Positions 9,701 through 29,969 of a stretch of 64,000 bases of DNA are shown one piece after another (position 1 is the stretch's first letter; each line of letters opens with the position of its first letter). The stretch covers positions 256,001-320,000 of the forward strand of contig CAWCRS010000001.1 of NCBI GenBank assembly GCA_963798085.1. The letters are read 5' to 3'. Position numbers and translations under genes: made by a program. The notes below the pieces were generated by a model. It saw nothing but the letters and a program-made list of their open reading frames with translations. It did not search any database and was not told the DNA's origin. The DNA comes from an uncultured Gemmatimonadales bacterium (lineage in GTDB: Bacteria; Gemmatimonadota; Gemmatimonadetes; Longimicrobiales; RSA9).

Positions 9701-10126
9701 CTCAAGGCGGTGGCGGTGCCGGGTGAGGTGCGCACTGCGCTGGGCTGTGGCCAGCCGATGGTCCCGCTCAACACCGTGTACTTCATCGCCACGCATGACG
9801 AGCGCGAATCCCTGCTGCTGGCGGCGCTGCTGAACTCCCTTCCCGTGCGCACCTTCGCGCGCACCATTGCGGAGCGCGCGAAGGATGCGCGCTTCCGCTT
9901 CTTCGCCTGGGTGCTGGGCGTGCTGCCGCTGCCTGCCGCGTGGCGCGACGGCGTGCACGCGCAACGCATGCTCGGGCTTTCCCGCGCCGCGCACGAGCGC
10001 GGCTGTGTTTCCGCCGATGAGCAGGCCGAGCTGGACGGCCTGGTGGGGGGCCTCTACGGCCTGTCCGCGGTGGACCTCGAGCAGCTCGCCCGTTTCGATG
10101 CCTGGTTGTCCGGGAGAACAACATGA
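6737..10126 (+). CDS. Large N6-adenine DNA methyltransferase (Eco57I / type IIG-like architecture) with C-terminal target-recognition-like region
   Basis: PYLNGGLF, IDPEMLGRVFE, GTFFTP, motif I VLDPACGSGAFL, motif IV FDLVLTNPPW, PLLRGGDI, PKVVW, PLNTVYFI, LAALLNS. Confidence 0.9.
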   Translation: MRRFLGAVNNAGIFEAALHAPGGRNVLEALVAALGLEAQARPIAPEQYGAWDVADVADLRWFAALAERGSMLVLAFELAAEPSPSRVADLSQRVRRADGEREHLLLVTDAQCRRIAVACHGLEGELRHLTIERQAVRATDLEALQEMIALPEEGGIALVLRFARALDRSRVTVRFFVDFRAQRARVAAAWQGVPAQAKGDREQLALLFLCRLMFLYFLQRRGHLAGDDAFLANLVRRWQQRRSRRRTFFRRVLEPLFFGALNTRPQQRTAAAKALGDLPYLNGGLFERSAVEHRHPRLDLGDDAALGVFEQLLERYRFTTRDSADEVADGEAALGIDPEMLGRVFEGMMAGERRGDTGTFFTPAAAADRLVSATLGAHIGTRLGLSEASAACVVSGDVSTLDCVGRERLAGLLRDLRVLDPACGSGAFLLAALSRVSGLRARLDGGDAVRARWDIVARSLHGVDLQSDAALLCALRLWLALTFAQPAGAVTPLPNLDRRIRQGDVLLDPLDVLSAEGPGSPEWSAAADPVVRRAAAALGSLAVCYVGAEPGERETVRRELANGERVLAKAWLEAVQRGLAHRVGGLRVRAAQRDLWGLPGDDARAASAALPRVEANVRQVRRLLSAIDESSALPFFSFAVHFANAALSGFDLVLTNPPWVRAHRWPATLRRMLRRRYAVCRDPGWRRGAQLARAPLAAGAQVDLALLFLERSLRALAEGGTLGILLPAKLLRSLYGGPARRMLLRDTRLSLVEDHSLDQHAIFAADSFTTAIVATRRGMSETAVGTTSPGVRIAMHRRGAPPLRFVLDAACLPVFPGDLDAPWLLAPPAVNGVLRRLQQAGPPLGCRLRVRRGIFTGSNNVLLVREVTPRLGGLAEIRAQGWHTSGRGGGRRAREYEALIESAVLRPLLRGGDISAWRCRPAHWVIWLHDDTGRAVAPPPRLAAYLERHRTKLEQRSGTRAGTPLGSVFRVSAEALGPKVVWHDLADTLKAVAVPGEVRTALGCGQPMVPLNTVYFIATHDERESLLLAALLNSLPVRTFARTIAERAKDARFRFFAWVLGVLPLPAAWRDGVHAQRMLGLSRAAHERGCVSADEQAELDGLVGGLYGLSAVDLEQLARFDAWLSGRTT

Positions 10127-10770
10127 GTCCCGTCCTGCGCCACGCCTCGCCCACCCCTGCCTTTGTCTTCGACGACGACGCCTCGCCCGGGGCGCGCGCG
10201 GTGCTGCGTTTTCTGCTGCGGCACGCGCACGTCGTCGACCTGGCAGTCTCCAACATACGGTTAGCGGCCTTGAGCTTCGCGCGTGAGGACCTGGTGGGCG
10301 TGCGTTCGGCGCGCGTGCTGATCGCCGGTTTCGACAACCTGGGCCTGCTCAATGCGGTGGATGCCGCGGCGGACCTGCCGGCGCACGCGGCTGGACTCGC
10401 CGTGCTGCACGGCTTTCTCGCCAGCGGGCGCCTGGAGATACGCTCGTCCGGCGTGCAACGCTGGACGCCCGACTTCTGCATCGCCGGCGGGCCGCCGCTG
10501 GCGAGGTGGTTCCCGGATGGCGCAGCCAGTCTCATCGGCAACCTGGGTCTGGGTGCGGCACACCCGTACCGCCGGCCCTTGCTGACATCGCTGTTGACGG
10601 GCCGTCGCTCCATCCGCACGGTGCGGCGGGGCTTTGAACGCGTGTGGATGGCCGGTCACGACATACGGGCCGTGGTCGCCGAAGCGCTGGCCGGAGTGGT
10701 GGCCGGGAGCGGCATCAACGAAGCGGGAAGGGCGCGCGAAGACCACGGAGGAGCGGCAGCTGCGCAATGA
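10123..10770 (+). CDS. PLD-fold-like protein lacking the HKD motif
   Basis: ATGA overlap with the MTase stop. Pattern follows single-domain PLD nucleases (VDLAV, ARVLIAG, GRLEIR, LIG, FERVW) but has RWTPDFCI where HxK is expected. Fold assignment is by eye. Confidence 0.6.
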   Translation: MSPVLRHASPTPAFVFDDDASPGARAVLRFLLRHAHVVDLAVSNIRLAALSFAREDLVGVRSARVLIAGFDNLGLLNAVDAAADLPAHAAGLAVLHGFLASGRLEIRSSGVQRWTPDFCIAGGPPLARWFPDGAASLIGNLGLGAAHPYRRPLLTSLLTGRRSIRTVRRGFERVWMAGHDIRAVVAEALAGVVAGSGINEAGRAREDHGGAAAAQ

Positions 10771-10917
10771 AACCGGCACCCGAATCCGCCGCCTCTCCAG
10801 TGCCTGGATTGTGGCGACGGGTCCCGGCGCGGGATCTGGTGCTGCGTCTGCTGCAGTCCGAGTTCGGAGCCTCCGCGGGGAGTGCTGCATCCGCCAATCG
10901 CTGGGGTGGGTCCCCGA

Positions 10918-13680
10918 ATGATGCGCGTGCTGATGCTTTCGACCGCACGTGAGGAAGTGCGCACGTTCCCGCTTGCCGACTTCCAGGAGTCTGCCGTACG
11001 CCGGGCCCGGGAGATCCTGGCAAGTCGTGGAGGCGTGCTGATCGCGGACAGTGTGGGCATGGGCAAGACGTTCGTGGCGCTTGCACTCATCGAAAGCGCG
11101 CTCTCGGAGGGCGCTGCCTGTGTGCTGGTGGTGTCGCCCGCCGGGCTTCGCTCTCACTGGACGCCTCACCTGCGGCGGCTGGCACGCGCGCATGCGGTGC
11201 CCTTCTTCGGGCGCGGCGCTCGTGCTGCGGCGCAGGGCCCGCCGTCGCGGCCGTCAGGGAACGGCGGGCCCGTGCTCGGCTGGGCTTCGATCGCCATGAT
11301 TGCTCTGGGGCGCTGGACCGCCGCGCTGGAGGCGCCGCAGCTGCTGGTGGTGGACGAGGCGCACGCTTTCCGCAACCCTCTAACCAGGCGTTATCGGCAT
11401 CTCGCCTGGCTGGCCCGGTCCGCGCGGGTGGTACTGCTGTCGGCCACTCCCGTCAACAACTCGCTGCTCGATCTCTATCACCTGCTGCGACTGTTTCTGG
11501 GCCATGGCGACCTCGAGGACATGGGCGTACCCGACCTGCGTGCCGCGTTGCGGGCGGCCTCGCGTTCGCCGGACGGCCGGCTGCCGGCACCGCTGGACGC
11601 CGCCATTGCGGCCGTGATGGTACGGCGTACGCGCCACCTGCTGCTCTCCCGTGAGCCCGCGCTCGCCGCACGCTTTCCCCGCCGGGCTTCGCCAAAGGCC
11701 GTGCTGTACGACATGGACGTCGTAGCTCCCCGTTTCTTCGAACGTGCGGGCGAGCTCGTGCACGACCTGAGGCTTGCGGCTTTCGATGGTGACGCCCTGC
11801 ACGTCACGACTGCGGCGCTGCTGCGGTGCGTGCTGCTCAAGCGTCTGGAATCGAGCGTCGCTGCTTTGCACGCCACGGCGCAATCGCTGGAGCGCTACCT
11901 CGGTGCGTTCAGCGAGGCGCTGGCGGCGGGCTACCGGTTGCGCGCCACCGATCATCGCGCTCTCACGAGCAGGGGCGAGGGACAGCTGGTGTTCCTGCCC
12001 CTGGCGTTACCGCCAGCGAGCGCCCGCGTCGATCGGACGGCCTTGCTGGCGAGCGCCGCGGCGGACTGCATGGTGCTGCAACGTCTGCGGGCCCTGGTGC
12101 GGCCCGCGTTGCTCCAGGATCCCAAGCTGTGCGCGCTGCGCGAGCTGCTCCGGACCGAGCTGGCCGGGCGGAAGACGCTGGTCTTTACGGAATACCGCGA
12201 AACCGCGACGCACCTCTGGCAATCGCTGCGCGGAGAATTTCGAGTCGCGCTTGTGCATGGCGGCGGCGCTCGGATGGGGGGTCTGCGGGCAGGACGGCGG
12301 GAGACGATCGAGCTGTTCTCGCCTGCGGCCAGCGGTCGGCGGGCGCCCCGCGAGTCGGAGCGCATTGACGTGCTGATTGCCACGGACGTGCTGGCGGAGG
12401 GCTTCAATCTGCAGGATGCGTCGGATGTGGTGAGCTACGATCTGCCGTGGAACCCGGTGCGACTGATTCAGCGCGCCGGTCGCATTGACCGTCTCGGATC
12501 GCCGCACGCCCGCATCTGCTGTCACAGCTTCCTGCCGGGTGCGGGCCTCGAACCGCTGCTTGGTCTGGTCGAGCGCCTCAATACGAAGCTGTCGGCGATC
12601 CGGGCGGGTGTGGGCGTTGAGGCCAGGGTATTGCCGGCACTCGCAGCCGGCGAATCAGGCCGTCGCGCGACGGGGCGCCGTGGCGCACGCCGCGACAGCG
12701 CGCCGCCGTCCCGTGCGGCGGGTGCCCAGGCGAACGCCGGCACGCACAGTGCGCAGTCGTTCATTGCGCCCGAGGAAGGAGCAGGCGCGCCGGCGCCGGC
12801 ATTGGCTGCGCGCGTGATACGGCGACTGGCCGCGGGTGATGCCACGCTCTTCGACGACCTGGAGGAGCAGGAAGACTGTGTTCTCGCCATCGAGGAGCGG
12901 CTCCGCGTGGCGTATCAACGGTCGCAGAGAGAACGGGAGTCGCAGATCCGTGCCGGCCACCCTGACGACGTGTTGGAAGTCGCGCTGCTCACCGGCCCGG
13001 GTGACGGGCAGCCCTGCTGTGTGGCCGCGGTGGAAGTTCGCGGCAGGCTGCGCTGGTGCCTGGTGTCGGCGAATCAGGAGGTCACGGAAGACAGGACGAG
13101 CGCGTTCGGACTGCTGCTGCGCGGGCTCGAAGCCGGGCCGCGCGCTGCCCCGGATGCGGCCATGCCGGATGCCTTGCTCGCAGCCGCTGCAATGCGTGCG
13201 GCGCAGGCAGTGGTGCGGTTTTCGGCTGCATGGTCGCGACCGGCTGCTGCGGCGGCGGGTCGCGTGCGGTGGGTACTGCGCACCCGCGTGCTGCGCAGCC
13301 TGGCGGTGGAGCCGGGCGGTGCGGACGCCGCGCTCTGTGCGCGCGCCGAACGCGTGCTTGCGGCGCTGGCGGCAGGTGGTCGCGCCGGCACTGACATCGC
13401 GTTAGCGGAGCTGCTGCGCAGACCCGGCCCGCGCGCAGCGGACGGTGCTCGTGGGCCGCAGCGCACAGCGGACAGTCTTCGTGGGCCGCCGCGCGCAGCG
13501 CTTCGCCCGGGCTCGACCGCACTGCTGCTCGACGGCATGGAGGCGGCTCTGGGCGCGGGCCGCGGAGCAGCCGGGCGACCACCGCCCGGCGCCGCCTCCG
13601 GCTCGGAGACTCGGAGCACCAGCGGTCAGCCTGCCGTGCCGCGTATCACCGGGATCCTTGTGGTCGCACGCCCGCCGTGA
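10918..13680 (+). CDS. SNF2-family (SF2) helicase/ATPase
   Basis: LIADSVGMGKT, LVVDEAH, LSATPVNN, LVFTEY, ATDVLAEGFNLQ, YDLPWNPVRLIQRAGRIDR. Start uncertain (10882-10933). Confidence 0.93.
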   Translation: MMRVLMLSTAREEVRTFPLADFQESAVRRAREILASRGGVLIADSVGMGKTFVALALIESALSEGAACVLVVSPAGLRSHWTPHLRRLARAHAVPFFGRGARAAAQGPPSRPSGNGGPVLGWASIAMIALGRWTAALEAPQLLVVDEAHAFRNPLTRRYRHLAWLARSARVVLLSATPVNNSLLDLYHLLRLFLGHGDLEDMGVPDLRAALRAASRSPDGRLPAPLDAAIAAVMVRRTRHLLLSREPALAARFPRRASPKAVLYDMDVVAPRFFERAGELVHDLRLAAFDGDALHVTTAALLRCVLLKRLESSVAALHATAQSLERYLGAFSEALAAGYRLRATDHRALTSRGEGQLVFLPLALPPASARVDRTALLASAAADCMVLQRLRALVRPALLQDPKLCALRELLRTELAGRKTLVFTEYRETATHLWQSLRGEFRVALVHGGGARMGGLRAGRRETIELFSPAASGRRAPRESERIDVLIATDVLAEGFNLQDASDVVSYDLPWNPVRLIQRAGRIDRLGSPHARICCHSFLPGAGLEPLLGLVERLNTKLSAIRAGVGVEARVLPALAAGESGRRATGRRGARRDSAPPSRAAGAQANAGTHSAQSFIAPEEGAGAPAPALAARVIRRLAAGDATLFDDLEEQEDCVLAIEERLRVAYQRSQRERESQIRAGHPDDVLEVALLTGPGDGQPCCVAAVEVRGRLRWCLVSANQEVTEDRTSAFGLLLRGLEAGPRAAPDAAMPDALLAAAAMRAAQAVVRFSAAWSRPAAAAAGRVRWVLRTRVLRSLAVEPGGADAALCARAERVLAALAAGGRAGTDIALAELLRRPGPRAADGARGPQRTADSLRGPPRAALRPGSTALLLDGMEAALGAGRGAAGRPPPGAASGSETRSTSGQPAVPRITGILVVARPP

Positions 13681-13863: not shown

Positions 13864-15229
13864 TCAGTCCGGCACGACCCATGTGTTGCCGGTGCCACCC
13901 TTGACTGCGTGCACCAGTCCCGAGTTCGGTGCGGAGTCGGATCGTGGAGGACGTCCGCCGAACATGTTGAAGTCGAGCGCAGCCACGCCGGGCAGCGGTA
14001 TGGTAATGGTGAAGCTGCCCTCGACCTTGTCGGGGATGGTGATGGCCAATGTGACGAGGATCCCGGTGAGCGTGCGCGGCTCGACCAGAGTCAGCGTGCA
14101 GCCGGTGACAACGCAGTGCACGCGCACGGAGATGTCCATCGGCGAAGGGGCGCCGACGTGGCCGCTGAACAGGTAGTCACCGGCGCCGCGGAAGCGCGTC
14201 GTCAGGATGAAGTTGTCGGTCGGTCCGCCGTTCTTGAACTCCCAGCCGTACGTCGTCAGGCCGACATCCTCGCCGCCCGTGTTGTCGCCGAGCGGGTCGA
14301 GGAGATAGCCGATGTTGGAGCGGCGGGGCTCGCTGATCAGCTTGACTGTCGAGGTTCCGCCCGGTCCCGCAGGCGGCAGGTCGCCGACGAACACGTTGCT
14401 GCCCTGATCACCCTGGGCCACGGCGTTGGTCTCGACGATCGCGTCGAAACCGGTGCCGGTGCTGAAACCGTCGAGAATGGCAGCTCGTTGCGCCCGCGGG
14501 CGCCGTGGTGACACCGAGCAGGATGCCGCGCGGCAGATTGGCGTAGGCCGAAGCCCACGACGGCAGCGGCGGCACCGGCCCGGTCAGCGGCAGAATGATG
14601 AAGACATTCTCTGTGCTGGGCAGTGTCAGCGTATGACCGGCCGCATCCAGGAAGTTGCAGTCCAGGGCGCCGCCGCGGATGAACTGAAGTGTGATGTTGT
14701 GCGTGTCGGGCGGCCCGGACAGCACGAGTCCGGGATTGACCACGAGCCGGGAATAGTTGGGTGGGTCGAGCGGGACCCAGCCTGTCGCTGCACTGGGGTC
14801 GTACAGCACACCCAGGTTGTTCACGCCCTGTGTGCCGCTCGTGTTGATGAGAGGCGACCCTTCGGGGAGCGGGGCCAGCACGAGCGGCTGCTCGAGGCCG
14901 GGCAGAATCGGACCCGGGTCCTTGAGGTTGCGGGCGTGCAGTAGATAGCTGCCATCAGGGAGCTCGAAGTCCGCGAGACCCAGCGGACCGGCCTGCTCCA
15001 CGTCGTATTCCCCGGTTGCCACGTTGGCGGCGGTCACGACGGCGCCGGGCACCGGATTCTGATCCGGGTCCAGGACGGTGACCACTACCTTGTGGGTGCC
15101 AGGGCTCAGGGAGGCTGCGGGACTGAACTGCGGGCTGGATGGTCCGCGCTCCTGAGAGCACGCGGCCAGCGTCGCTGTCAGCGCAAGAACACATGCGCCG
15201 ACCGAGCGCAACATCGCGTTGGGCTTCAT
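13864..15229 (-). CDS. Lipoprotein with carboxypeptidase-regulatory-like (beta-sandwich) domain; frameshift near 14480
   Basis: MKPNAMLRSVGACVLALTATLAAC lipobox; VVVTVLDPDQNPVPGAVVTA...LPDGSYLL. Reading continues ATSC|ILDGFSTG in the adjacent frame to 13864. Confidence 0.75.
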
Positions 15230-15760: not shown

Positions 15761-18406
15761 TTGGCAGGGCCTTTGGGTTTCGTCGGACGGCGGACGGAGC
15801 TGGACCGCGTCACGAATGCGGTGGCGGGCTGCATCGAGAGTGGTGCAGGCCGCGCGGTGTTCATCGAGGGCCCGGCCGGTGTCGGCAAGACCACGCTGGC
15901 CACGGCGCTGATCGAGGAGTGCCTGGCGAAGTGGCCAGGGCTGGCGGTAGCCCGGGGCCGCTGCGTGCAGGCTTTCGAGAGCGGCGACCCGTACCTCGTG
16001 TTCGTCAATGCGTTGCGCGACCTGTCGGACGAATCGACCGCCGGGTTCGTGAGCCGCTCGACGATCTCGAGCCTGCTGAAGGAGCTGGCGCCGCACTGGC
16101 TGCAGGTGGTACCGGTGGTGGGCAACCTGCTGTCCGCGGCCATGGCGACGGCCACGGAGGTACAGGGCCGGCTGAAGAAGGCGGGCGCGCCCTCCCGCGA
16201 AGCGCTGTTCGTGCAGTACCTCGAGCTGATTACGCGACTGGCTCGCCAGTCCCCGCTCCTGCTCTTCCTGGATGACCTCCACTGGGCCGATCACGCGTCG
16301 CTCGCGTTGCTCAGCTATCTGGCGCGCGGTTTGGGGCATCTCCCTGTCGCCATTGTGGGCACGCTGCGGGCGCTGCAGGCGGAGCACACCGATCCGGCAC
16401 TCAGCCAGACCATTCTGGAACTGGAGCGGGAAGACCTGGCATTGCGGGTCCCGCTGGGAGAGCTGGATCCGACCGCGCTGGAGGATCTGCTGAAGGATGT
16501 GCTGCAGGGCGACGTCGCGGAGCCGCTGCGGCGCTGGGTGCACCGCACGGCCGGTGGCAACCCGCTGTTTGCCTCGGAACTCGCCCGGCTGCTGCTCTCC
16601 ACGGGCGGCATAGTGAACGAGCGCGGCGAGTGGCAGCTGACCGAAGCGGCGCAGCAGACCGAAGTGCCGCGTTCGGCTGAGGCCGTGATCGAGAAGCGCC
16701 TGCAGCGTCTGGCGCCCGAGGAGCTGAACCTGCTGCAGTACGCCAGCGTCAATGGCACCGACTTCGATTCCGCGGTGCTCGCCCGGTTGCTCGGCCAGGA
16801 TGAACTGGAGGTGCTGGACGCGCTGCAGCCGCTGGAGCGCAAGCACGGTCTGGTGGATTCGACGGGCGACCTGCCATTGCCCGATGGCGACATCGCAATG
16901 GCGTTCCGGTTCCGCCACGCCCTGGTGCAGACAGTGCTGTACCGGCAGGTCGTGGGCAAGCGCCGGATCCTGCTGCACCGCAAAGCGGGCGAGGCGCTGG
17001 AGACGCTGTATGGCGACACGGCCGATCAGGTTGCCGGCCGGCTCGCGCGCCACTTCCACGAAGGCCGGCAAACGGATCGGGCCCATCGGTTCGCGCGTGT
17101 CGCCGCTGATGCCGCGGCCGTCGTGTTCGCCAACTGGGAAGCCGTGGAGTACCTCGACATCGCGCTGAAGAATGCGAAGCAGCCGCTCGAGCTGGGCTGG
17201 GTCAACGAGCGACTGGGCGACATCTACGGCCTGGTGGGTCATTACGCCAACGGAATCGCGTGTTATCGCGCGGCGCACGCGACTGCGGATGAGGCTGCGC
17301 GCGTGCGCATCGAGCGCAAGATCGCGACGCTGGAGCGGCGCTCCGGCCTCACGCCGGCGCCCGAGCTGGCGCAGCGCGTGCGCGCGCTGCTGCCGCGCGC
17401 GCACGCTCCGGCCGAGCATTGCATGGTATTGCTGGAGCTGACTCGCCTGCCGGGTGGAACCGGGGCGACGGATCTGGCCTCCGAGGCGGTGCGCATTGCC
17501 AGCACACTGGAAGATCGCATGCTGCTGGCGGAGGCACTGGAGCGGCTGGCGGTTGCGCACCTGTTCGTCGAGGGCGGCGTGCAGGATGCCTTCCCGCATC
17601 TGCAGCGCGCGCTGGAGATCGCCGAATCCGTGAATGACCCCTCGCTGGTCGCGAAGTATCACAGCATCGCGGGCATTGCTCATGCGAAGTTAGGGCATTA
17701 CGCGGACGCGCGCATTGATCTGCAGGAAATGCTCAAGGCTTTCGAGCGCATGGGCAATCCGAACGGCATTGGCGCTGCCTGCACGAATCTGGGCGCCGTG
17801 CTGCTGCGTTCCGGTCTGTACGACGAAGCGGAGCGCATGCTCGATCGGGCGAGGTCGATACACGAGCGGCGTGATCGCGCGACCGTGGTCGAGTCATTGT
17901 ACAGCCTGGCCATGCGCGCTCTGCTTTCCGGCGACCTGGCGCTGGCGCTGGAGCGCTATGGCCTTTTGCTCGAGCACGCCCGCGAGTTCCAGCACTGGAA
18001 TTCGGAGGCGGTCGCGCACGCGGGCATGGGACTCTGCTGGCTGGAGCAGGGACGCGTTTCCGAGGCGAGGCAGGCGGCGGAGAGTGCGCGCGCAGCGGTC
18101 GCGGGCCACGATCACTGGTTCGAGGATCGCGACCTGCTCGAGCTGTTCCTGGCGCGACTCAATGCGGTGGATGGACAGCTGGACGCAGCGGTGGCGCGGC
18201 TCGCATCCGCGGCCGAAGCACTGCGTCCGCGGGATATCTACCTCTGGGCGCGCATCGAGCTGGAGCGTGCGCGCCTGCTGCAGCAGATGGACCTGGATGC
18301 GGCGGCGGATGTCGTGGACCGCGTTGCCGAGGCCACGGCCGGCATTCAGTCACCGCCCATCGCGTCGGCAATGTCGGCGCTGCGTGAGCGGCTGGCCGTC
18401 GCATGA
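15761..18406 (+). CDS. AAA ATPase (AAA_16 / STAND-like) with C-terminal TPR repeats; no recognisable effector domain
   Basis: FVGRRTEL, Walker A GPAGVGKT, Walker B LLFLDDLHWAD, TAGGNPLF, FRFRHAL, then helical TPR-like repeats. Confidence 0.9.
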   Translation: MAGPLGFVGRRTELDRVTNAVAGCIESGAGRAVFIEGPAGVGKTTLATALIEECLAKWPGLAVARGRCVQAFESGDPYLVFVNALRDLSDESTAGFVSRSTISSLLKELAPHWLQVVPVVGNLLSAAMATATEVQGRLKKAGAPSREALFVQYLELITRLARQSPLLLFLDDLHWADHASLALLSYLARGLGHLPVAIVGTLRALQAEHTDPALSQTILELEREDLALRVPLGELDPTALEDLLKDVLQGDVAEPLRRWVHRTAGGNPLFASELARLLLSTGGIVNERGEWQLTEAAQQTEVPRSAEAVIEKRLQRLAPEELNLLQYASVNGTDFDSAVLARLLGQDELEVLDALQPLERKHGLVDSTGDLPLPDGDIAMAFRFRHALVQTVLYRQVVGKRRILLHRKAGEALETLYGDTADQVAGRLARHFHEGRQTDRAHRFARVAADAAAVVFANWEAVEYLDIALKNAKQPLELGWVNERLGDIYGLVGHYANGIACYRAAHATADEAARVRIERKIATLERRSGLTPAPELAQRVRALLPRAHAPAEHCMVLLELTRLPGGTGATDLASEAVRIASTLEDRMLLAEALERLAVAHLFVEGGVQDAFPHLQRALEIAESVNDPSLVAKYHSIAGIAHAKLGHYADARIDLQEMLKAFERMGNPNGIGAACTNLGAVLLRSGLYDEAERMLDRARSIHERRDRATVVESLYSLAMRALLSGDLALALERYGLLLEHAREFQHWNSEAVAHAGMGLCWLEQGRVSEARQAAESARAAVAGHDHWFEDRDLLELFLARLNAVDGQLDAAVARLASAAEALRPRDIYLWARIELERARLLQQMDLDAAADVVDRVAEATAGIQSPPIASAMSALRERLAVA

Positions 18407-19383
18407 GCGAAGCACTGGCGACCACGAGCCCGGGCGAAGCGTCGCTCGCTGCTTTCGCCGAGAGCCTTGCGACAGCGCGTGCGGGCACACCTGCCTTGTT
18501 GCTCTTCACGGGCAATGGCGGTGGTCCACGCAGCGAGCTGTCACTGCTCGCGCAGGACGCGCCCGCGGGGCGTGGCACGCGTGTAGTGGAAGTCGAGCCT
18601 GGCATTGCGGGGCGCTACGACCCGGTGGCCGCGGCGTGCCGCAACTGGCAGCAGGGCGTGGTGCGCGTTTCCTTCGAAAGCACGGGCTCGCGGCTGGCGC
18701 TCGAGTGGCTGCAGGTGCTGCCGGTCTGGGGTGATCTGCTGGCGGCGATCGCGGAGACGTGGCGCGCGCTGCGCGAGCGCAAACACGAAGGGCAGCGCGA
18801 TGTCGAAGCTGCCCGGCTGCTGCACGCCGCACGGCGCCGCCCGATCGTGCTGGTGCTGCACGACCTGCATCTCGCGGATCACGCGGCCGCGCATCGTCTG
18901 GCCGCGCTGATCGCACACGCGGGCGCGCGCTCGCGGCTTCTGATCGTGGGCGGTGTCGAGCTGTCGGCACAGGGCACGGCGCAGCCGGCGATTCTCGACG
19001 TCGCGGGGTTTCTGCCTGCGGAGCGTGTGCATGTGGAACGGCTGGCCACACAGGGCGGCGCCGTGCTCGACTCGCTCGCCGGCTCGTCACGGGACGCGCT
19101 CAATGCGGTGCACGCGGCCGCGGTGCTGGGTGATTCCTTCAATGGCGCCAGCGTCGCCCGCATGCTCGAGATCGATGAGCTGAGCGCGGAGGACCGGCTG
19201 GCCCTGGCCGTGCGCAGTGGCCTCATCCATGTGGCGGGTGTGATCGATCTGCCGGATGGCGATATCGTGACCGAGTACCGCTTCGAGGCCGGTGGCGTGC
19301 GCGTGGCCACTCTCGCCGCGATCCCCGCCGACGTCCTGACCAGACTGCGCCACCGCGCGCAACAGGCAAGACCCGTCCGCTGA
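18403..19383 (+). CDS. Truncated, degenerate paralogue of the upstream ATPase domain (pseudo-ATPase)
   Basis: ATGA overlap. Shared blocks WLQVLPVWGDLL, VLVLHDLHLADHA, LPDGDIVTEYRF. Walker A replaced by GNGGGPRS. Confidence 0.8.
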   Translation: MSEALATTSPGEASLAAFAESLATARAGTPALLLFTGNGGGPRSELSLLAQDAPAGRGTRVVEVEPGIAGRYDPVAAACRNWQQGVVRVSFESTGSRLALEWLQVLPVWGDLLAAIAETWRALRERKHEGQRDVEAARLLHAARRRPIVLVLHDLHLADHAAAHRLAALIAHAGARSRLLIVGGVELSAQGTAQPAILDVAGFLPAERVHVERLATQGGAVLDSLAGSSRDALNAVHAAAVLGDSFNGASVARMLEIDELSAEDRLALAVRSGLIHVAGVIDLPDGDIVTEYRFEAGGVRVATLAAIPADVLTRLRHRAQQARPVR

Positions 19384-19492: not shown

Positions 19493-21592
19493 ATGCTCGG
19501 CATCACTGCGCATTCCCGAACCAGGCTGTTTCTCACGTCATCCGTGGCGGCGCTGCTGGCGGTGGGCACGCCGGCGGCGGCGGGGGCGCAGGAGCCGTTG
19601 GGCGTGACCGCGGCGTTTGATAACAGTCGTTTCATCAGCGCCACTTCACCTCTGGACCTGCACCTCAGTCGGCCGCTCAATGCGGAGGAAGAGCGGGTAG
19701 CGATCTTCCTGGGCACGCTGGACCTGAGCGCACTGTACCAGCGCACCGGCGCGCAGCTGCGGTACCATGCGCGGGGTACCCGCCTGCCCGCAGGCGAGAG
19801 CGAGCTGATCGTGTACGCGGTGGCGCGTACGGGCGAATGGAACGAGATCGGGCGCGTGCCCGTGCGTCTACTCACGGCGGCCGGCTTCGAGAAGACGTCG
19901 ATCACGCCCAAACTCGCTGTCAGTAACAAGGGGCAGGTACTTGAAGGTCACGCGCCCGATGCGAATCGACCGCCTCGTCCGGCGTTCCAGGACTTCAGCC
20001 TGAATCTGGGTCTGCAGTCGGAACAGGTACGCGGCGGCTGGGCCCTGCGCACGCAGTCCAACATGCTGGGCGTGAGCAATCGGCAGGAAGCGCTGCGCTT
20101 CGGTGAACGGCAGGACGAAGCGCCCCGCCTCGACCTCGCGGACTACCTCGTCACGCTGCAGCACGGCGGCACCACGCTCACGGCGGGCAATCTCGCGTTC
20201 GGCAGCGAGCGCCACATCGCGAACAGCTTCGAAGCCAGGGGCCTGAGCGCGCGCTTCCATTTCGGGCCGGTCGCGTCTCTGTCGCTGGCCGGCATGAGTG
20301 GCAGCCGACTGGTCGGCTGGACGAATCCGCTGGGCATCGCGCAGCCGAAGCACCGCCTGCTGGGCGGCACGCTGGGCCTCGATCTCGTGCCCCACCGGCC
20401 GGGCCTGGTGCAGCTGGAAGTGTCCGCACTCAATGGGGATGCGCTGCCACAGGCCGGCTTCAATCGCGGCGCCATCACCAATGCGGAGCAGAGTCGCAGC
20501 GCAGGCGTGCGCGTGAACGCGAGCGATCCCTCGCAGCGACTGCATCTGGACGCCGGTTTCGCGCGCACGCGTTTCACCAATCCCGCCGACCCGTTGCTGG
20601 CGCAGGGCGCGACCCTGGTTGCCGTGCAGCCGGAAACGCGCAATGCGCACTACATCGATCTGTCGTGGGATGCGTTGCGCTCAATTCGCCTGTCGCCGAC
20701 GCTGCCCGCCAACCTTGCGTTCACAGTGCGGCACGAACGCGTCGATCCGCTCTATCGCAGTGTGGCCTCGCCGCAGACGCGCGCGGATCTGCTGCAGAAC
20801 GGTGTGCAGGCAACGGCGTCGGTCGGTGCACTCAGCGCGCAGCTGGTCCTGAACCGCGGTCACGACAACCTGGACGAGATCGCGACGATCCTCACCACGC
20901 TGACGCGCTCGGCCGCTTTCAACCTCGCGCTGCCGCTGAATGCGGTGCTGGGACCGACGCGCACGTGGCTGCCCATGATCACGTGGGGCCTCGCGCGCAT
21001 TCATCAGTTCGGTGACAGCGTGCCCACGCTGGGCGGGTTCACGCCCACGTTCGTGCCGGACCAGGTCAGTCTCAGCCACAACGTGATGGTGGCCTGGCAG
21101 GCGGCGCGCTGGCGGGTGCTGTACCAGCTCAGTCGATCGTCGCAGGACAACCGGCAGGAAGGCCGGGAGAATGCGGACCTGGTCAACACCGCGCACACCC
21201 TCTCGCTCGGCGTCACGCCGCTGCCCGTTCTTGATGTGGCTGTGGATGGCGGCCTCGAGAAGGCTGATAACCGCGAGTTCGCGCAGCACAACACGACGCA
21301 GCGGCTGGCCACACTGCTGACCTGGCGCTTCACCGCGCGCAATGCGGTGATCGCGGGGGTGTCGCACACGAGCGTGTCGGACGATCCGCGCACGTTCACG
21401 CAATCCGCGACGGACCTGCGCCTCGAGCTTTCGCAGCGTTTCACGCTGTTCCGTGCCCGACTGGATCGTGGCCCGGCGCAGGTGTTCGTGCGTTATGCCC
21501 GGCAATTCGGCGACCGTCTCGTGCCACCCGGCGCCGGCGATACCCGCCGCAACTGGAGCCTGAACACGGGGCTCACGCTCAGCGTGTTCTGA
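19493..21592 (+). CDS. Predicted outer-membrane beta-barrel protein with N-terminal soluble domain
   Basis: Signal peptide (AAAGA|Q), many amphipathic beta-strands, C-terminal NWSLNTGLTLSVF ending in Phe (beta-signal-like). Confidence 0.75.
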   Translation: MLGITAHSRTRLFLTSSVAALLAVGTPAAAGAQEPLGVTAAFDNSRFISATSPLDLHLSRPLNAEEERVAIFLGTLDLSALYQRTGAQLRYHARGTRLPAGESELIVYAVARTGEWNEIGRVPVRLLTAAGFEKTSITPKLAVSNKGQVLEGHAPDANRPPRPAFQDFSLNLGLQSEQVRGGWALRTQSNMLGVSNRQEALRFGERQDEAPRLDLADYLVTLQHGGTTLTAGNLAFGSERHIANSFEARGLSARFHFGPVASLSLAGMSGSRLVGWTNPLGIAQPKHRLLGGTLGLDLVPHRPGLVQLEVSALNGDALPQAGFNRGAITNAEQSRSAGVRVNASDPSQRLHLDAGFARTRFTNPADPLLAQGATLVAVQPETRNAHYIDLSWDALRSIRLSPTLPANLAFTVRHERVDPLYRSVASPQTRADLLQNGVQATASVGALSAQLVLNRGHDNLDEIATILTTLTRSAAFNLALPLNAVLGPTRTWLPMITWGLARIHQFGDSVPTLGGFTPTFVPDQVSLSHNVMVAWQAARWRVLYQLSRSSQDNRQEGRENADLVNTAHTLSLGVTPLPVLDVAVDGGLEKADNREFAQHNTTQRLATLLTWRFTARNAVIAGVSHTSVSDDPRTFTQSATDLRLELSQRFTLFRARLDRGPAQVFVRYARQFGDRLVPPGAGDTRRNWSLNTGLTLSVF

Positions 21593-21597
21593 TCGGA

Positions 21598-22953
21598 GTG
21601 ATGATGATACCGGCCTCTGCACTGCAGCGGTTGCCGAATGCCGGCGTTGCCGGCGACTCCGGCCCTCGCCCTCGCCGGCGGGGTCGTGTCGTTGCCCGCC
21701 TGGCCGGTGTCGTCCTGCTGGCGCTGCGCGGCGCACAGCGTGCGGACGCACAGATCCACGTCAATCCCACGGGTGTCGACGTCAATGGTCAGGGCGCTAC
21801 CACGGTGTTCCTGACGTTCGGGCCGCTCATCGACTACGCGCCGGCGGAGTCCTTCTGGTGCGGCGAAGTGGTCGATGCGACGCCCGACATCGGCCGGCGC
21901 TGCAATGCGACGACGCTGTTCGGCGCGCTGCCCGCGCGTCTCGACCAAGCCCGCCTCCATGGCACGGGCTTTACCGATATCATGTCGATCCCGCCATCGG
22001 TCACCCGCCGCGCCTGGCAGGCCGCGGCCGCGGGAGCCGTCGCGCCTTTCTTCTACGTGCGCCGCTTCGTGAGCACACGGGGTGCGCCCGACCAGTACGT
22101 CGCGGTCACCTGCCGCCTCACGGGTGGCGGCGCGCGCGTGCCGCTCTCGCTGACCAATGTAAATGTCGCGTTTGCGGTGGAGACGCCGGTCCTGCAGGTG
22201 CCGGCCGGTCAGTCGCCGCCGCCGCTGCGCGCGAAGATCGCCTACACGGGCACGGGCCGCCTGGTCGGACGCTGGGAAATCGTGCGCCCGGGCGAGGAGC
22301 TGCCGGAAGCGCACGATCTGCTGACCGAGGCGACGCTGCCGCTGGAAGAGCGCGGCACGCAGAAGCGCTACAGCGAAATCCAGCGCTTCAACGTCTTCCT
22401 GGCGCCCGGCGGCAGCTTCACGCTGCCCGGGCCGGATGCCTCCCGCCTGCCTGTCAATGTCGAGGGCATGTACCTGCTGCTGCTGCGCATCGAGGCGAGC
22501 AATGACAAGGAAGGCGATTCCAATCTCTCCACGGTGGGCGGCACGGGTGTGGTGCACAGTGGTGCAGTCGCAGGCTTCCCCATGCCCGCACTGCGTTACG
22601 TGGTGGGGACCGGCGGCAGTGAGCAGTCGCCCGTCCGCGTCGACGAGTCGCTGCGTCTGCTGCTGCCCGCCGATAACGCCGTGCTATCAGGCGACCGGCT
22701 GGCGGCCTTCTCCTGGGTCGAAGACCCGCGCGCCGCACTCTACCGTCTGGAGATCGAGACCGCTGCAGGCGACGCCGTGCTGTCCGCGTTCGCGGAGCGG
22801 GGCCGGCCCTGGTACAGCCCGCCGCCCTGGCTGGCGCAGCGAGTGACCGAAGCCGGGCTGCGCTGGCGTGTGGTGGCGCTCGATGCCGGCGGCGGCGTGC
22901 TCGGTCGCAGCGCCTGGCGGCGTCTGGCACCGACGTCGGCGCCCGGTGGCTGA
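21598..22953 (+). CDS. Secreted/periplasmic beta-rich hypothetical protein
   Basis: Signal ending ADA|QIHVNPTGVDV; 5 bp after the barrel gene; strong coding-like codon usage. Start uncertain. Confidence 0.8.
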   Translation: MMMIPASALQRLPNAGVAGDSGPRPRRRGRVVARLAGVVLLALRGAQRADAQIHVNPTGVDVNGQGATTVFLTFGPLIDYAPAESFWCGEVVDATPDIGRRCNATTLFGALPARLDQARLHGTGFTDIMSIPPSVTRRAWQAAAAGAVAPFFYVRRFVSTRGAPDQYVAVTCRLTGGGARVPLSLTNVNVAFAVETPVLQVPAGQSPPPLRAKIAYTGTGRLVGRWEIVRPGEELPEAHDLLTEATLPLEERGTQKRYSEIQRFNVFLAPGGSFTLPGPDASRLPVNVEGMYLLLLRIEASNDKEGDSNLSTVGGTGVVHSGAVAGFPMPALRYVVGTGGSEQSPVRVDESLRLLLPADNAVLSGDRLAAFSWVEDPRAALYRLEIETAAGDAVLSAFAERGRPWYSPPPWLAQRVTEAGLRWRVVALDAGGGVLGRSAWRRLAPTSAPGG

Positions 22954-23047
22954 CATGATCGCATTTCGCATCGCGCCCGTGCTCCGCACGCAGCGCCTTC
23001 GTCCACGTTGCACTGGCTGACCCATGACCCCGATGACAGAGGAGGGA

Positions 23048-24280
23048 ATGATGACCGCGCACAGATTGCAGGCGTGGATCCTCGCGGCGCTGCTGCTGGG
23101 GGCCGGCGGATCCCGCACCGGACTCGCCGCACAGAGCGGCGGAATCACGCTCAGCATCAATGACGTCACGGTCCCGTTCGAGACCAATGGCGGTGCCGGC
23201 CTGGCAACCTTCACAGTCTCGTTGCACGGCGGTTCGCACAACACCATCACCGTGTTCTTCTCGACCACCGGGGGTACCGCCACGGCGGGCAACCAGTGCG
23301 GCGGGTCCACGGACTATCTGAGCGTAAACAGTGCCGCCCTGACGTTCTCGCCGACAGACAGTGTCAAGCAGATCAACATCACCGTCTGCGGCGACACGCG
23401 GGATGAACCGGACGAGACCTTCTCGGTGAATATCTTCAACGCCAGTGGCGGCGCGACCATCCAGAAGGCGACCGGCACCGCGACGCTGATCGATGACGAT
23501 CCGCCGCCCTCGATCCGCATCAACAATGTCACTGTCACCGAGGGCAATGCCGGCGCAGTTGGTAACGCCGTGTTCACAGTAACGCTGTCGGCCGCGAGCG
23601 ACAACCAGATCACCGTCGCGTACACCACCGCCAATGGTACGGCCACGGGCGGCGGCTGTGGCACCAATAACGTCGACTACGGCACGAACTCCGGCTCGCT
23701 GACCTTTGCGCCGGGGCAGACCAGCCAGACTGTGAACGTGCCGGTGTGCGGCGACAACCTGCGCGAAGGCAATGAGCAGTTCCAGGTGCGCCTGTCCAAC
23801 CCCACCAACGCCACGATCCAGACCGGCACAGGAACGGCGACCATCAGCGACGACGATCCGCTGCCCGTGCTCAACATCGCGCCGGCGGACCTGTCGGTGT
23901 CCGAGCCGGCATCGCGGCTGGTTCAGAGTCACGCCGTCGTACACGTGACCCTGACAGGCGTCACAGCGCAGACGGTTTCTGTGCAGTACACCACCAACGA
24001 CAACTTCGCGCGCGGTGGAACGAACTGCACGATCAGCTTCAACCTTCCGACGAAGGGTACTTCCGGCACGGCGGGCGATTTCATCAGGCAGCAGGGCACA
24101 CTGACGTTCGCGCCGAACGGACCGACCACGCAGGACATCTCGATCCCGATCTGCTTCGACCTCGAAACATCCGAGGCGGACGAGAACTTCTCCGTGAAGA
24201 TCCTGAATCCCGCGAATGCGACGATCGGCAACGCTTTCAGCAAGATTACCATTCTTGCCGGCGGCAAGGACAACGACTGA
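23048..24280 (+). CDS. Secreted protein with three Calx-beta domains
   Basis: RBS GAGGAG, signal peptide, three repeats of TVTLS...TANGTAT..DY...GSLTFAPG...ENF.V.L.NP.NATI...TI.DDD. Confidence 0.92.
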   Translation: MMTAHRLQAWILAALLLGAGGSRTGLAAQSGGITLSINDVTVPFETNGGAGLATFTVSLHGGSHNTITVFFSTTGGTATAGNQCGGSTDYLSVNSAALTFSPTDSVKQINITVCGDTRDEPDETFSVNIFNASGGATIQKATGTATLIDDDPPPSIRINNVTVTEGNAGAVGNAVFTVTLSAASDNQITVAYTTANGTATGGGCGTNNVDYGTNSGSLTFAPGQTSQTVNVPVCGDNLREGNEQFQVRLSNPTNATIQTGTGTATISDDDPLPVLNIAPADLSVSEPASRLVQSHAVVHVTLTGVTAQTVSVQYTTNDNFARGGTNCTISFNLPTKGTSGTAGDFIRQQGTLTFAPNGPTTQDISIPICFDLETSEADENFSVKILNPANATIGNAFSKITILAGGKDND

Positions 24281-24312
24281 GCAGTTCTAACACTCTGACA
24301 GGAGGAAACGCC

Positions 24313-25020
24313 ATGTTGGGAAACACGCAGTTCAGCGGACTGCTGGTGCGGGTGCGCCGCAATGCACGTTTCGGCGTGCTGGCTCTGCCACTGCTGGTGC
24401 CGCTGGCGCGCCGGACCGGTGTCGCGTCCGTCACGGTCCGCCCCGGCGACATTCCCGCCGGCTCGAGCGCCACGGGCACGGTGACGCTGGACGCTCCGGC
24501 GCTCGCCGGCACGCGGGTACAGCTGAGCAGCGCCGATCCCTCGGTCGCCACCGTGCCCGCCAGCGTGAGCCTGAGCGGCAGCGCCATTGGCACAAGCTTC
24601 AGCGTGAGCACGACCTCGGGCTCGGCGGGCTGCACGGAAGTCTCCGCGAAAGTGATGGCCACGCCCAAACAGCTGGCTACCGGCATCGCGCGGACCGCGT
24701 TCATCTATGTGCTGCCGGTGACGCCCGCCGGTTCGCCTGTGCAGCTGCGGCTGCAGTTCCCGCTGGTCGTGGGCGGCACGCAGCTTACGGGCACCGTTTC
24801 ACTGGCGAACCCGGTCTCGCAGAAGCTTCCGGTGTCCTTGAGCAGCAACAACCCGCAGGTCACGGTACCGTCCACCGTGTCCGGATTCGGCCGGCTCAAC
24901 TCGGGCACGTTCACGATCAGCACGACGGACTCGGGCCGCAACACGTGCGCCGTGATCACGGCGACGCAGGGCTCATCGGTGAGCAAGGCGTTGCTGAAGA
25001 TCGTCACTGCCGGCGGCTGA
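24313..25020 (+). CDS. Secreted Ser/Thr-rich protein with two Ig-like repeats
   Basis: AGGAGG RBS; repeats TGTVTL...VQLSSADPSVATVPASVS...F.VST and TGTVSL...VSLSSNNPQVTVPSTVS...FTIST. Confidence 0.8.
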   Translation: MLGNTQFSGLLVRVRRNARFGVLALPLLVPLARRTGVASVTVRPGDIPAGSSATGTVTLDAPALAGTRVQLSSADPSVATVPASVSLSGSAIGTSFSVSTTSGSAGCTEVSAKVMATPKQLATGIARTAFIYVLPVTPAGSPVQLRLQFPLVVGGTQLTGTVSLANPVSQKLPVSLSSNNPQVTVPSTVSGFGRLNSGTFTISTTDSGRNTCAVITATQGSSVSKALLKIVTAGG

Positions 25021-29300: not shown

Positions 29301-29932
29301 TCGCCCAGCGTCACCCAGAGGATGCCGTCATGAAACGCGTCCTGCACGTCGTCGTCGTGACAGAGCGCGCGCGCCAGTGTGGTCTTGCCGTAACCGCCGG
29401 CGCCGCGCAGTGCGGCCGTGACCGCGACGGGGTCGCCGGACTGCGACAGCAGGCCGCTCTTCAGTTCTGCGAGTTCGCGTACGCGCGGCACATAGTCGAA
29501 GGGCAGCCTGTCCGCCATCACGGGAACGCGCATTTGCGCGCACGAGCCCGCAAGATCCGCAACCAGCTCTTCCCACTGTTCCGGGATGGTAGTGTCGATC
29601 ATGTGGGCCTGACGCATCCATGCGGCCAGGCCGGATGTGTCGGGCAGCTCGCCGCGGAACACCGGCCTGACGCATCGCCCCTGCTGCCGGGCGTAGCGCC
29701 ACTCTCGACGGACCCATTCCGAGCCCAGCGCCGCCTCGGTGAGCAAGAGGATGACGTACTGCACGTGGTCAATGACGTCCGTTACCTGACGCCACCAGTC
29801 ATCGCCGCCGTGCAGGTCCGCGATGTCGTGCCAGAGCGAGAAGCGTGATTCGAGGCGGGCGCGCAGCTCACGCGCGTACTCCAGTCCGTCCGCACGGGCG
29901 TACGAGATGAAAATGCGTGGGGCATCGGACAT
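26302..29932 (-). CDS. TIR - NB-ARC - helical - 14x WD40 protein (Apaf-1/NLR-like); frameshift near 26945
   Basis: IFISYARAD...SEWVRREW (TIR), GAGGYGKTT and LLVIDDVW (NB-ARC), RLHDVIR, 14 GH...WD repeats once DGTLSI|WDLK is rejoined. Confidence 0.93.
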
Positions 29933-29969
29933 GGCTGCCATCCGTCGAGGCGACGGGCTCCGCCTCAGC

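What the first reader, a model, noticed from the sequence alone, without database searches (positions are those of the whole stretch)
15761..19383. STAND-like ATPase-TPR paired with a truncated, P-loop-dead paralogue of itself
Seen, ORF1 vs ORF2: AVFIEGPAGVGKTTL vs LLLFTGNGGGPRSEL; HWLQVVPVVGNLLSA vs EWLQVLPVWGDLLAA; LLFLDDLHWADHAS vs VLVLHDLHLADHAA; ASVNGTDFDSAVLARLLGQDEL vs AAVLGDSFNGASVARMLEIDEL; LPDGDIAMAFRF vs LPDGDIVTEYRF. ORF2 has lost Walker A Lys/Thr, one Walker B Asp, the GNPLF helical segment and all TPRs, yet stays open for 326 aa and is coupled by ATGA. ORF1 shows no kinase, cyclase, HTH or nuclease output. Inference: a sensor plus pseudo-ATPase (decoy, inhibitor or hetero-oligomer partner), analogous to paired NLRs. 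I do not recognise this as a described bacterial module.
Basis: partly seen in the sequence, partly recalled or inferred. Interest (0 to 1): 0.78.

Follow-up and report, generated by a model that had tools for sequence, protein, structure and literature searches.

The report
Conserved dead partner of signalling ATPase
A bacterial switch ATPase with no usual output domain sits beside an old, conserved, sensor-less partner gene that here has lost its ATP-binding motifs, and both share a hydrophobic hairpin that may be the real output of an apparently undescribed cell-envelope-linked module.

Summary
ORF1 (A) is an effector-less STAND ATPase with TPRs. ORF2 (B) belongs to an old family of TPR-less STAND proteins: 101 rows form one clade, and a tree pairing ORF2 with ORF1 is rejected (p-AU 6e-96). 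B co-occurs with A in 23 genomes of 218 searched, mirrors A's tree, and has dN/dS below 1 in 11 of 11 pairs. (1) B is dead only in some lineages: 22 of 98 keep both Walker motifs, and the HD1 loss recurs (15 changes on the tree). (2) The pair is the remnant of a four-gene cluster with a lipoprotein (C, divergent here) and a family-5 solute-binding lipoprotein (D, not found here). (3) What B keeps best is a hydrophobic hairpin, W-x4-P-x2-G-x4-A-x3-T, and the winged helix; the hairpin marks STANDs that lack an N-terminal effector. Best model (inferred; binding not shown): B is a one-sided subunit that joins and tunes A oligomers at the membrane. Active/inactive STAND pairs are known; this module was not found in my searches.

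The parts
15773..18406 (+). ORF1 / gene A: effector-less STAND ATPase (NBD-HD1-WHD-arm-TPR), 877 aa from TTG 15773; the frame is also open from TTG 15761 (881 aa, numbering used here)
15869..15892 (+). A: intact Walker A (GPAGVGKT, aa 37-44)
16088..16153 (+). A: hydrophobic hairpin insert between Walker A and B (aa 110-131; W113 P118 G121 A126 T130 invariant in 29 of 29 A rows); low AlphaFold confidence at 109-147
16259..16276 (+). A: intact Walker B (LLFLDD), followed by sensor-1 R203 and R223 (candidate trans-acting Arg), both 100% in A rows
16553..16570 (+). A: HD1 GxP motif (GNPLF region), deleted in ORF2
16715..16918 (+). A: winged-helix domain (about aa 319-386)
17183..18403 (+). A: TPR sensor (about aa 475-881); nearest folds MalT domain III (Z 27.8) and Rap/NprR, but helical-repeat Z-scores are generic
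18403..19383 (+). ORF2 / gene B: 326-aa TPR-less pseudo-STAND (NBD + WHD; HD1, arm and sensor absent), ATGA-coupled to A
18511..18540 (+). B: eroded P-loop (GNGGGPRSEL)
18697..18765 (+). B: conserved hairpin (W102 P107 G110 A115 T119; 97/93/99/100/93% in 101 B rows)
18847..18870 (+). B: altered Walker B (VLVLHDLH)
19024..19026 (+). B: R208, in an [ED]R pair kept by 10 of 10 dead-clade rows, about three residues from A's R223 in the alignment; candidate trans-acting Arg, homology not proven
19075..19302 (+). B: winged-helix domain, 26 of 76 columns invariant among 7 dead-clade proteins against 28 of 209 elsewhere
13864..15229 (-). Gene C: divergent lipoprotein (lipobox Cys; transthyretin-like plus DOMON/CBM9-like beta-sandwich domains in the model of the G023 orthologue), split by a frameshift near 14480 in this assembly

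Best explanation
B is a dedicated, accessory, sensor-less partner of the STAND ATPase A. Shown: old separate clade, co-inheritance, purifying selection, loss of the nucleotide site in this lineage, retention of hairpin, WHD and an Arg before the last NBD strand. Inferred mechanism: A rests autoinhibited, with its hairpin (in the ISM region that the arm and TPR clamp in PH0952) covered. A ligand bound by the TPR, plausibly one gathered by the co-encoded lipoproteins C and D, opens A, which oligomerises head to tail and presents the hairpins to the inner membrane as its output. B has no arm or sensor to hide its hairpin and, in this clade, cannot hold ATP. It can therefore offer only one face (hairpin, WHD, Arg) and joins A oligomers as a terminal subunit that sets their threshold or size. 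Capping/switch-off is slightly more likely than seeding.
For: B rows form one clade (SH-aLRT 99; 100/99); ORF1+ORF2 as sisters is rejected (p-AU 5.8e-96). A and B trees agree (Mantel r 0.67 over 20 genomes; matching subclades). Both genes occur in 23 genomes, A alone in 7, B alone in 3, of 218. dN/dS of B is 0.16-0.69 in 11 of 11 pairs. Five hairpin residues are at 93-100% in B while the Walker A Lys is at 46%. 95 of 97 hairpin-bearing long STANDs start directly with the ATPase, and 60 of 69 hairpin-less ones have over 120 N-terminal residues. The hairpin is tandemly duplicated in several proteins. Head-to-tail multimers with ATP between protomers, and arm/TPR capping of the ISM helices, are from PMC6468293 (passages).
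Against: No binding, localisation or activity evidence. Four family-f7 genomes have C-A-D and no B was found genome-wide. G271 (one contig, 87% complete) has an intact B and no A orthologue (best 308 bits against over 1000). Tree congruence and co-occurrence also follow from plain linked vertical descent. The G000/G023 pair gives the weakest dN/dS (0.69, dS near saturation). Hairpin hydropathy is borderline (mean best 19-residue KD 1.5; 34-43% of rows above 1.6), so it may be buried in a protein interface. The hairpin/effector exclusion is probably one evolutionary event. The link between HD1 loss and P-loop loss (18 of 30 vs 6 of 68) is not significant on independent pairs (median p 0.25). 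Long branches could inflate support for one B clade.
Confidence: 0.55

Rival explanations
1. B is a trans-activator or membrane-docked seed: its uncovered hairpin and NBD bind A's arm/TPR or NBD and trigger A oligomerisation, as an isolated NB domain does for plant helper NLRs.
For: B lacks the arm and sensor that autoinhibit STANDs (PMC6468293 passages). An NB domain alone activates helper NLRs (10.1101/2023.11.30.569466, abstract only). B keeps the hairpin that lies in the TPR-capped region.
Against: A constitutive activator translated together with A would keep A on unless something else gates it. A persists without B in 4 f7 genomes.
Confidence: 0.15
2. A and B are parts of an envelope-spanning machine with C and D: a hairpin-lined STAND ring in the inner membrane that acts as a gated conduit or anchor for a periplasmic binding protein, with B as a structural spacer subunit.
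For: D is translationally coupled to A (gap -4 or -1 in 7 of 7 A-D junctions examined). No permease gene was recognised among the adjacent ORFs that I listed; only part of them were scanned against Pfam. The hairpin can be duplicated. Proteins with an extra TPR-less module in front of A arose separately.
Against: No D orthologue was found in G000 or G023 (best 33-34% identity, against 51% for an orthologue). The hairpin is short and borderline for a bilayer. D may use permeases encoded elsewhere (not checked).
Confidence: 0.13
3. Anti-phage abortive system: A senses a phage protein with its TPR, the hairpins permeabilise the membrane, and B restrains it.
For: Many STAND-TPR proteins sense phage proteins (PMC13581612 passages). 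In G000 and G023 the locus adjoins a methylase / SNF2 helicase cluster with sub-cut-off DISARM and type IIG similarity. Distribution is patchy (30 A carriers of 218 genomes).
Against: A has only a weak P-loop-level PADLOC hit (mad8, E 2e-5) and B none. The helicase neighbour was found in 1 and the methylase in 2 of the other loci scanned. Gene trees are congruent and the cluster carries a solute-binding lipoprotein, which fits signalling better.
Confidence: 0.1
4. B works independently of A (a homo-oligomer or adaptor for another partner) and is only linked to it.
For: G271 has B without A; f7 genomes have A without B.
Against: 23 of 26 B carriers have A; of the other three, one ends at a contig edge and one is a 168-aa fragment. 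B stays next to A through three gene orders.
Confidence: 0.05
5. ORF2 is a decaying duplicate of ORF1.
For: B evolves 2.7 times faster than A; dN/dS 0.69 for G000/G023; no close match in the one same-genus genome searched.
Against: AU test; ten dead-clade rows share the same deletion and open frames of about 295-350 aa; rate heterogeneity among sites (lnL gain 47) concentrated in the WHD (p 1.5e-4); a 20-member cluster of a dead-clade B whose 8 full-length members align without a break.
Confidence: 0.02

Closest known systems
STAND ATPases with TPR sensor (PH0952, MalT; AAA_16 / kinase- and cyclase-fused STANDs)
   Same: NBD-HD-WHD-arm-TPR layout; top Foldseek hit 6MFV PH0952 (E 3.4e-14); TPR nearest MalT domain III; best NCBIfam hit is the ATPase part of TOMM kinase/cyclase fusion proteins (E 3.6e-41, far below cut-off).
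   Different: No effector domain at either end; an extra conserved hydrophobic hairpin in the NBD; a dedicated TPR-less partner; two lipoproteins in the cluster.
nSTAND2 two-gene systems (PMC8195603, passages)
   Same: Operon of two STAND modules, one with eroded NTP-binding motifs; the authors predict a hetero-multimer from a conserved Arg finger in both.
   Different: That family is described as closer to CR-ATPases/DAP3 and its inactive member carries GT4 or HEPN effectors. Here both are AAA_16-type, B has no effector, and many B are not eroded.
iSTAND / iSTAND2 ternary systems (PMC7159879, PMC8195603, passages)
   Same: Catalytically inactive bacterial STAND kept as a constant component.
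   Different: No MoxR-vWA pair recognised in the cluster, no N-terminal effector or EAD on B, and an active paralogue beside it.
Paired / sensor-helper NLRs (NAIP-NLRC4 from search listing of PMC9975940; Rx-NB with NRC from abstract of 10.1101/2023.11.30.569466)
   Same: Two STAND paralogues with divided labour; a bare NB domain can act in trans.
   Different: Here the degenerate partner lacks the sensor, the reverse of the usual pair; no immune role shown.
KAP NTPases (recalled; the defining paper was not held)
   Same: Hydrophobic segments inserted inside the P-loop domain, singly or doubled; weak Pfam KAP hits on one B (E 8e-4) and one tandem protein (E 1e-5).
   Different: The insert is one short hairpin of borderline hydropathy; the proteins have STAND HD1/WHD/TPR; scores are below the KAP cut-off or driven by the P-loop.

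Membership tests
STAND ATPase (ORF1) | NBD with intact Walker A, Walker B and sensor-1 Arg | tested here: met
STAND ATPase (ORF1) | HD with GxP motif, WHD, arm, repeat sensor | tested here: met
   AlphaFold model and Foldseek to 6MFV; Pfam
STAND ATPase (ORF1) | Effector domain at one end (general rule in PMC6468293) | tested here: not met
   No effector Pfam hit; most window-type homologues have Walker A at residue 33
STAND ATPase (ORF1) | Inducer-dependent, ATP-dependent oligomerisation | not testable with these tools
   needs biochemistry
STAND ATPase (ORF2) | NBD and WHD homology | tested here: met
STAND ATPase (ORF2) | Functional nucleotide site and HD1 | tested here: not met
   (by sequence only)
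nSTAND2 two-gene system | Two adjacent STANDs, one with eroded motifs | tested here: met
nSTAND2 two-gene system | GT4 or HEPN effector on the inactive member | tested here: not met
   ORF2 ends about 30 residues after the WHD; only AAA_16 in Pfam
nSTAND2 two-gene system | Belongs to the CR-ATPase/DAP3-like clade | tested here: inconclusive
   AAA_16 is the only NTPase family above cut-off for ORF1; nSTAND3/5 are weak and below cut-off; no nSTAND2 sequences were put in my trees
nSTAND2 two-gene system | Conserved Arg finger in both proteins | tested here: inconclusive
   R223 100% in A; [ED]R nearby in 66 of 101 B and 10 of 10 dead-clade B, offset about 3 residues
iSTAND ternary system | MoxR AAA+ and vWA genes in the operon | tested here: not met
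   cluster genes are A, B, C, D only
Avs / defence STAND | N-terminal defence effector or match to a defence profile | tested here: not met
   PADLOC: only mad8 at E 2e-5 over the P-loop for A, none for B
Avs / defence STAND | Phage-triggered activation | not testable with these tools
   needs experiment
KAP NTPase | Two or four transmembrane helices inside the P-loop domain (recalled) | tested here: inconclusive
   one hairpin, KD about 1.4 in ORF1 and ORF2, 1.5 family mean

The most novel reading that the evidence does not exclude
A class of STAND ATPases whose effector is built into the nucleotide-binding domain: a caged hydrophobic hairpin that, on hetero-oligomerisation of A with sensor-less B subunits, inserts into the inner membrane to form an ATP-gated pore or conduit serving a periplasmic solute-binding protein and a lectin-like lipoprotein. 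This would be a STAND ring used for trans-envelope signalling or uptake, not as a hub for fused enzymes.
Probability: 0.15. Interest if true: 0.9.

Novelty: new variant of a known kind. Interest (0 to 1): 0.62.

Why it matters
STAND ATPases are normally read as sensor-switch-effector chains. This family has no effector domain, and its most conserved feature is a hairpin inside the ATPase that a partner keeps while it repeatedly discards the nucleotide site and HD1. That gives a natural series, from intact to dead partners, for asking which surfaces a STAND subunit needs in order to join or stop an oligomer, a question central to paired NLRs. It also ties a STAND to secreted binding proteins in a little-studied phylum (relatives are labelled Gemmatimonadota / Longimicrobiales by their sources).

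Tried and rejected
'Fusion proves partnership' was rejected: the tandem module-module-TPR proteins (P0009, P0015, P0037, P0069, P0047) carry an N-module that groups with window-type A, not with B, and two of them share a contig length with a B gene. P0204 is a frameshift chimera of adjacent A and B, not a fusion. The hairpin profile has no PDB match (one hit at E 8) and only weak Pfam hits (best E 0.007-0.02), so a recalled resemblance to membrane-inserting hairpins is unsupported. C has no close solved relative (best Z 9.1 over 79 residues; Foldseek best E 2.6e-4); its middle part was barely tested. Sequencing runs: no RNA holder listed; the one DNA run covers the region in short pieces and not the break in C. 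No sigma-70-like promoter; terminator-like sites at chance level; no significant fold downstream of B. Earlier scan findings: nothing by sequence, place or words. Literature searches that found no description of the module; supplement search of PMC13581612 for Gemmatimonad/Longimicrobi/SWACOS found 0 files, but its tables may list these proteins by accession. Supplements of PMC7159879 and PMC8195603 were not read.
Full report
OBSERVATION. ORF1 (A, 15761-18406) and ORF2 (B, 18403-19383) are real, overlap by ATGA, and contain the quoted motifs. They are homologous (BLASTP E 6e-10 and 1e-8). A is AAA_16 plus TPR with no other Pfam domain above cut-off; B has a weak AAA_16 hit only. The AlphaFold model of A (pLDDT 82.6, 9-sequence alignment) matches the STAND-TPR protein PH0952 best. 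Residues 109-147 are low-confidence. A probably starts at 15773. In its own genome B matches only A, apart from itself.

B IS AN OLD FAMILY. A profile of 11 B proteins found about 90 representatives of up to 470 aa among the best 150 hits of the 50%-identity library. I built a tree of 145 rows (two A rows dropped: one frameshifted, one with an internal repeat; some genome rows duplicate library rows). All 101 B rows form one side of a branch (SH-aLRT 99); ORF2 sits in a 10-row clade (99) with G023's B. A careful tree of 50 rows gives B 100/99 and A 97/97. Forcing ORF1 and ORF2 together costs 262 lnL units (p-AU 5.8e-96, 77 rows). Long-branch pull remains a caveat.

SELECTION. Nei-Gojobori dN/dS for B is 0.16-0.69 in 11 of 11 pairs, and for A 0.15-0.43 in 9 pairs. 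dS is 0.67-1.57, near saturation in these GC-rich genomes, so I read the ratios as upper bounds (inference). The only pair that includes this window (G000/G023) is the weakest, 0.69. Among 7 dead-clade proteins (one fragment dropped), 26 of 76 WHD columns are invariant against 28 of 209 elsewhere (p 1.5e-4), and a gamma model gains 47 lnL units. Uniform neutral decay would not give this.

CO-INHERITANCE AND CONTEXT. In three families searched whole (73, 31 and 114 genomes) I assigned by hand 30 A carriers and 26 B carriers; 23 have both. Kin are not independent, so the Fisher p is not quoted as a test. Four genomes flagged unpublished (G015, G016, G019, G085) enter only the denominator. Class and phylum samples of 401 genomes each added no B outside these families (the phylum search used the narrower dead-clade profile). 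A and B distances correlate (Mantel r 0.67, 20 genomes). Eight database B proteins share a contig length with a window-type A, out of 24 B clusters looked up, and the pairs so inferred fall in matching subclades. The cluster has four genes: B, a lipoprotein C, A, and an SBP_bac_5 lipoprotein D. Orders seen: B-C-A-D in 12 contiguous loci (one with a frameshift in A), C-A-D-B in 2, divergent C then A-B in G000 and G023, and C-A-D without B in 4 f7 genomes. A and D overlap by 4 or 1 bases in 7 of 7 junctions examined. Here B has taken D's place; no D orthologue was found in G000 (90% complete) or G023. C diverges fast (25% mean identity). The model of G023's C (pLDDT 68.9) has a transthyretin-like domain (Z 9.1, rmsd 1.7, 79 aligned) and a DOMON/CBM9-like domain (Z 8.5, rmsd 3.9, 132 aligned). 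These Z values are near the level the tool calls common. In the window C is split near 14480.

AGAINST. A persists without B in f7. G271 keeps B with no A orthologue and G217 has only fragments. The other A-only and B-only cases end at contig edges. So B is accessory, and the tie is strong but not absolute.

WHAT B KEEPS AND LOSES. Of 98 B rows with an N-terminus, Walker A is GK[ST] in 43, GR[ST] in 21, G[KR]x in 10 and eroded in 24; 41 keep both Walker B acids; 22 keep both motifs; 30 lack HD1 (regular-expression classes, imperfect). HD1 loss needs 15 changes on the tree and Walker A erosion 11. Their association is not significant on independent pairs. In contrast W113, P118, G121, A126 and T130 are 100% in 29 A rows and 97, 93, 99, 100 and 93% in 101 B rows, and WHD residues such as A328, F335, E348, D353 and L355 are at 88-95%. 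The dead clade has lost the sensor-1 Arg but keeps [ED]R (ORF2 R208) in 10 of 10 rows near A's invariant R223. The alignment offset leaves the homology open.

THE HAIRPIN. It lies between Walker A and B, is nearly uncharged in A (0.7 charges in the core against 3.7 in 7 outgroup rows) and has borderline hydropathy (1.5 against 0.5). All 48 single-module window-type homologues carry the strict motif, and 2 of 51 more distant hits do. Among 166 long proteins with a Walker A from two searches (4 without one dropped), 95 of 97 with the hairpin begin with the ATPase, and 60 of 69 without it have over 120 N-terminal residues; kinase and HTH domains are common among the latter. This is probably one origin, and one search was seeded with the hairpin. 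The hairpin is tandemly doubled in G266's A and in P0068, P0097, P0103, P0104, P0131, P0138 and P0147. Hairpin-bearing STAND-TPR proteins also exist outside the A clade; their contexts are unknown. In PH0952 the ISM helices of the NBD are clamped by the arm and TPR (PMC6468293, passages). I place the hairpin in that region by position, not by structural superposition.

MECHANISM. Shown: ancient paired inheritance, constraint, loss of the nucleotide site in this clade, retention of hairpin and WHD, link to two lipoproteins. From established STAND behaviour (PMC6468293): resting monomer, inducer-driven opening, head-to-tail multimers with ATP between protomers. Inferred: the hairpin is A's output and engages the membrane when uncovered; B, with no ATP site or HD1, can fill only one side of an interface and so ends, sizes or seeds the oligomer. 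I give 0.55 to B as a one-sided modulator (capping favoured), 0.15 to a trans-activator, 0.13 to a structural subunit of an envelope machine, 0.10 to phage defence, 0.05 to independence from A and 0.02 to decay. A's TPR is nearest MalT and Rap/NprR folds, which fits a small imported ligand, but such scores are generic for helical repeats. No complex prediction was obtained.

KNOWN SYSTEMS. Inactive bacterial STANDs (iSTAND; PMC7159879, passages) and an active/inactive two-gene pair (nSTAND2; PMC8195603, passages) are described, so the idea of a pseudo-STAND partner is not new. This module fails their defining features (no MoxR-vWA; no GT4/HEPN). The 2026 survey of prokaryotic STANDs (PMC13581612, passages and a supplement term search) showed nothing on it. 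Searches found no description; subscription papers and unread supplements could hold one. KAP transmembrane inserts are recalled, not read. Verdict: new variant of a known kind; interest 0.62.

Noticed in passing
window 6737-13680 (+): N6-methylase (1129 aa), 215-aa ORF and SNF2 helicase (932 aa) with sub-cut-off similarity to type IIG R-M / DISARM DrmD; all three syntenic in G023, the methylase also in G029.
   Followed up: partly
window 26302-29941 (-): TIR-like, NB-ARC-like, WD40 protein (1055 aa) whose WD40 repeats continue in another frame (26302-26997); with the break in gene C this suggests assembly indels.
   Followed up: partly
window 19493-25020 (+): Run of four secreted-looking ORFs downstream of B (699, 451, 418 aa with Calx-beta, 235 aa); the first two have no Pfam or NCBIfam hit and were not found in the other loci.
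   Followed up: partly
proteins P0009, P0015, P0037, P0047, P0069, P0163, P0181: Tandem module-module-TPR proteins (1196-1395 aa) from a separate duplication within the window-type A clade; two share a contig length with a B gene.
   Followed up: partly
L113 4534-7401 (-) and P0068, P0097, P0103, P0104, P0131, P0138, P0147: Tandem duplication of the hairpin unit (about 45 aa period) inside the NBD.
   Followed up: partly
L064 7573-12002 (+): G091 has a second A-D pair with no B or C detected beside it.
   Followed up: no
L102 11392-12648 (-): G271 keeps an intact B at the usual chromosomal place, with a partial D orthologue elsewhere and no A orthologue.
   Followed up: partly
window 51296-52498 (-): A second ORF whose N-terminus looks TIR-like by eye (400 aa); not scanned.
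   Followed up: no
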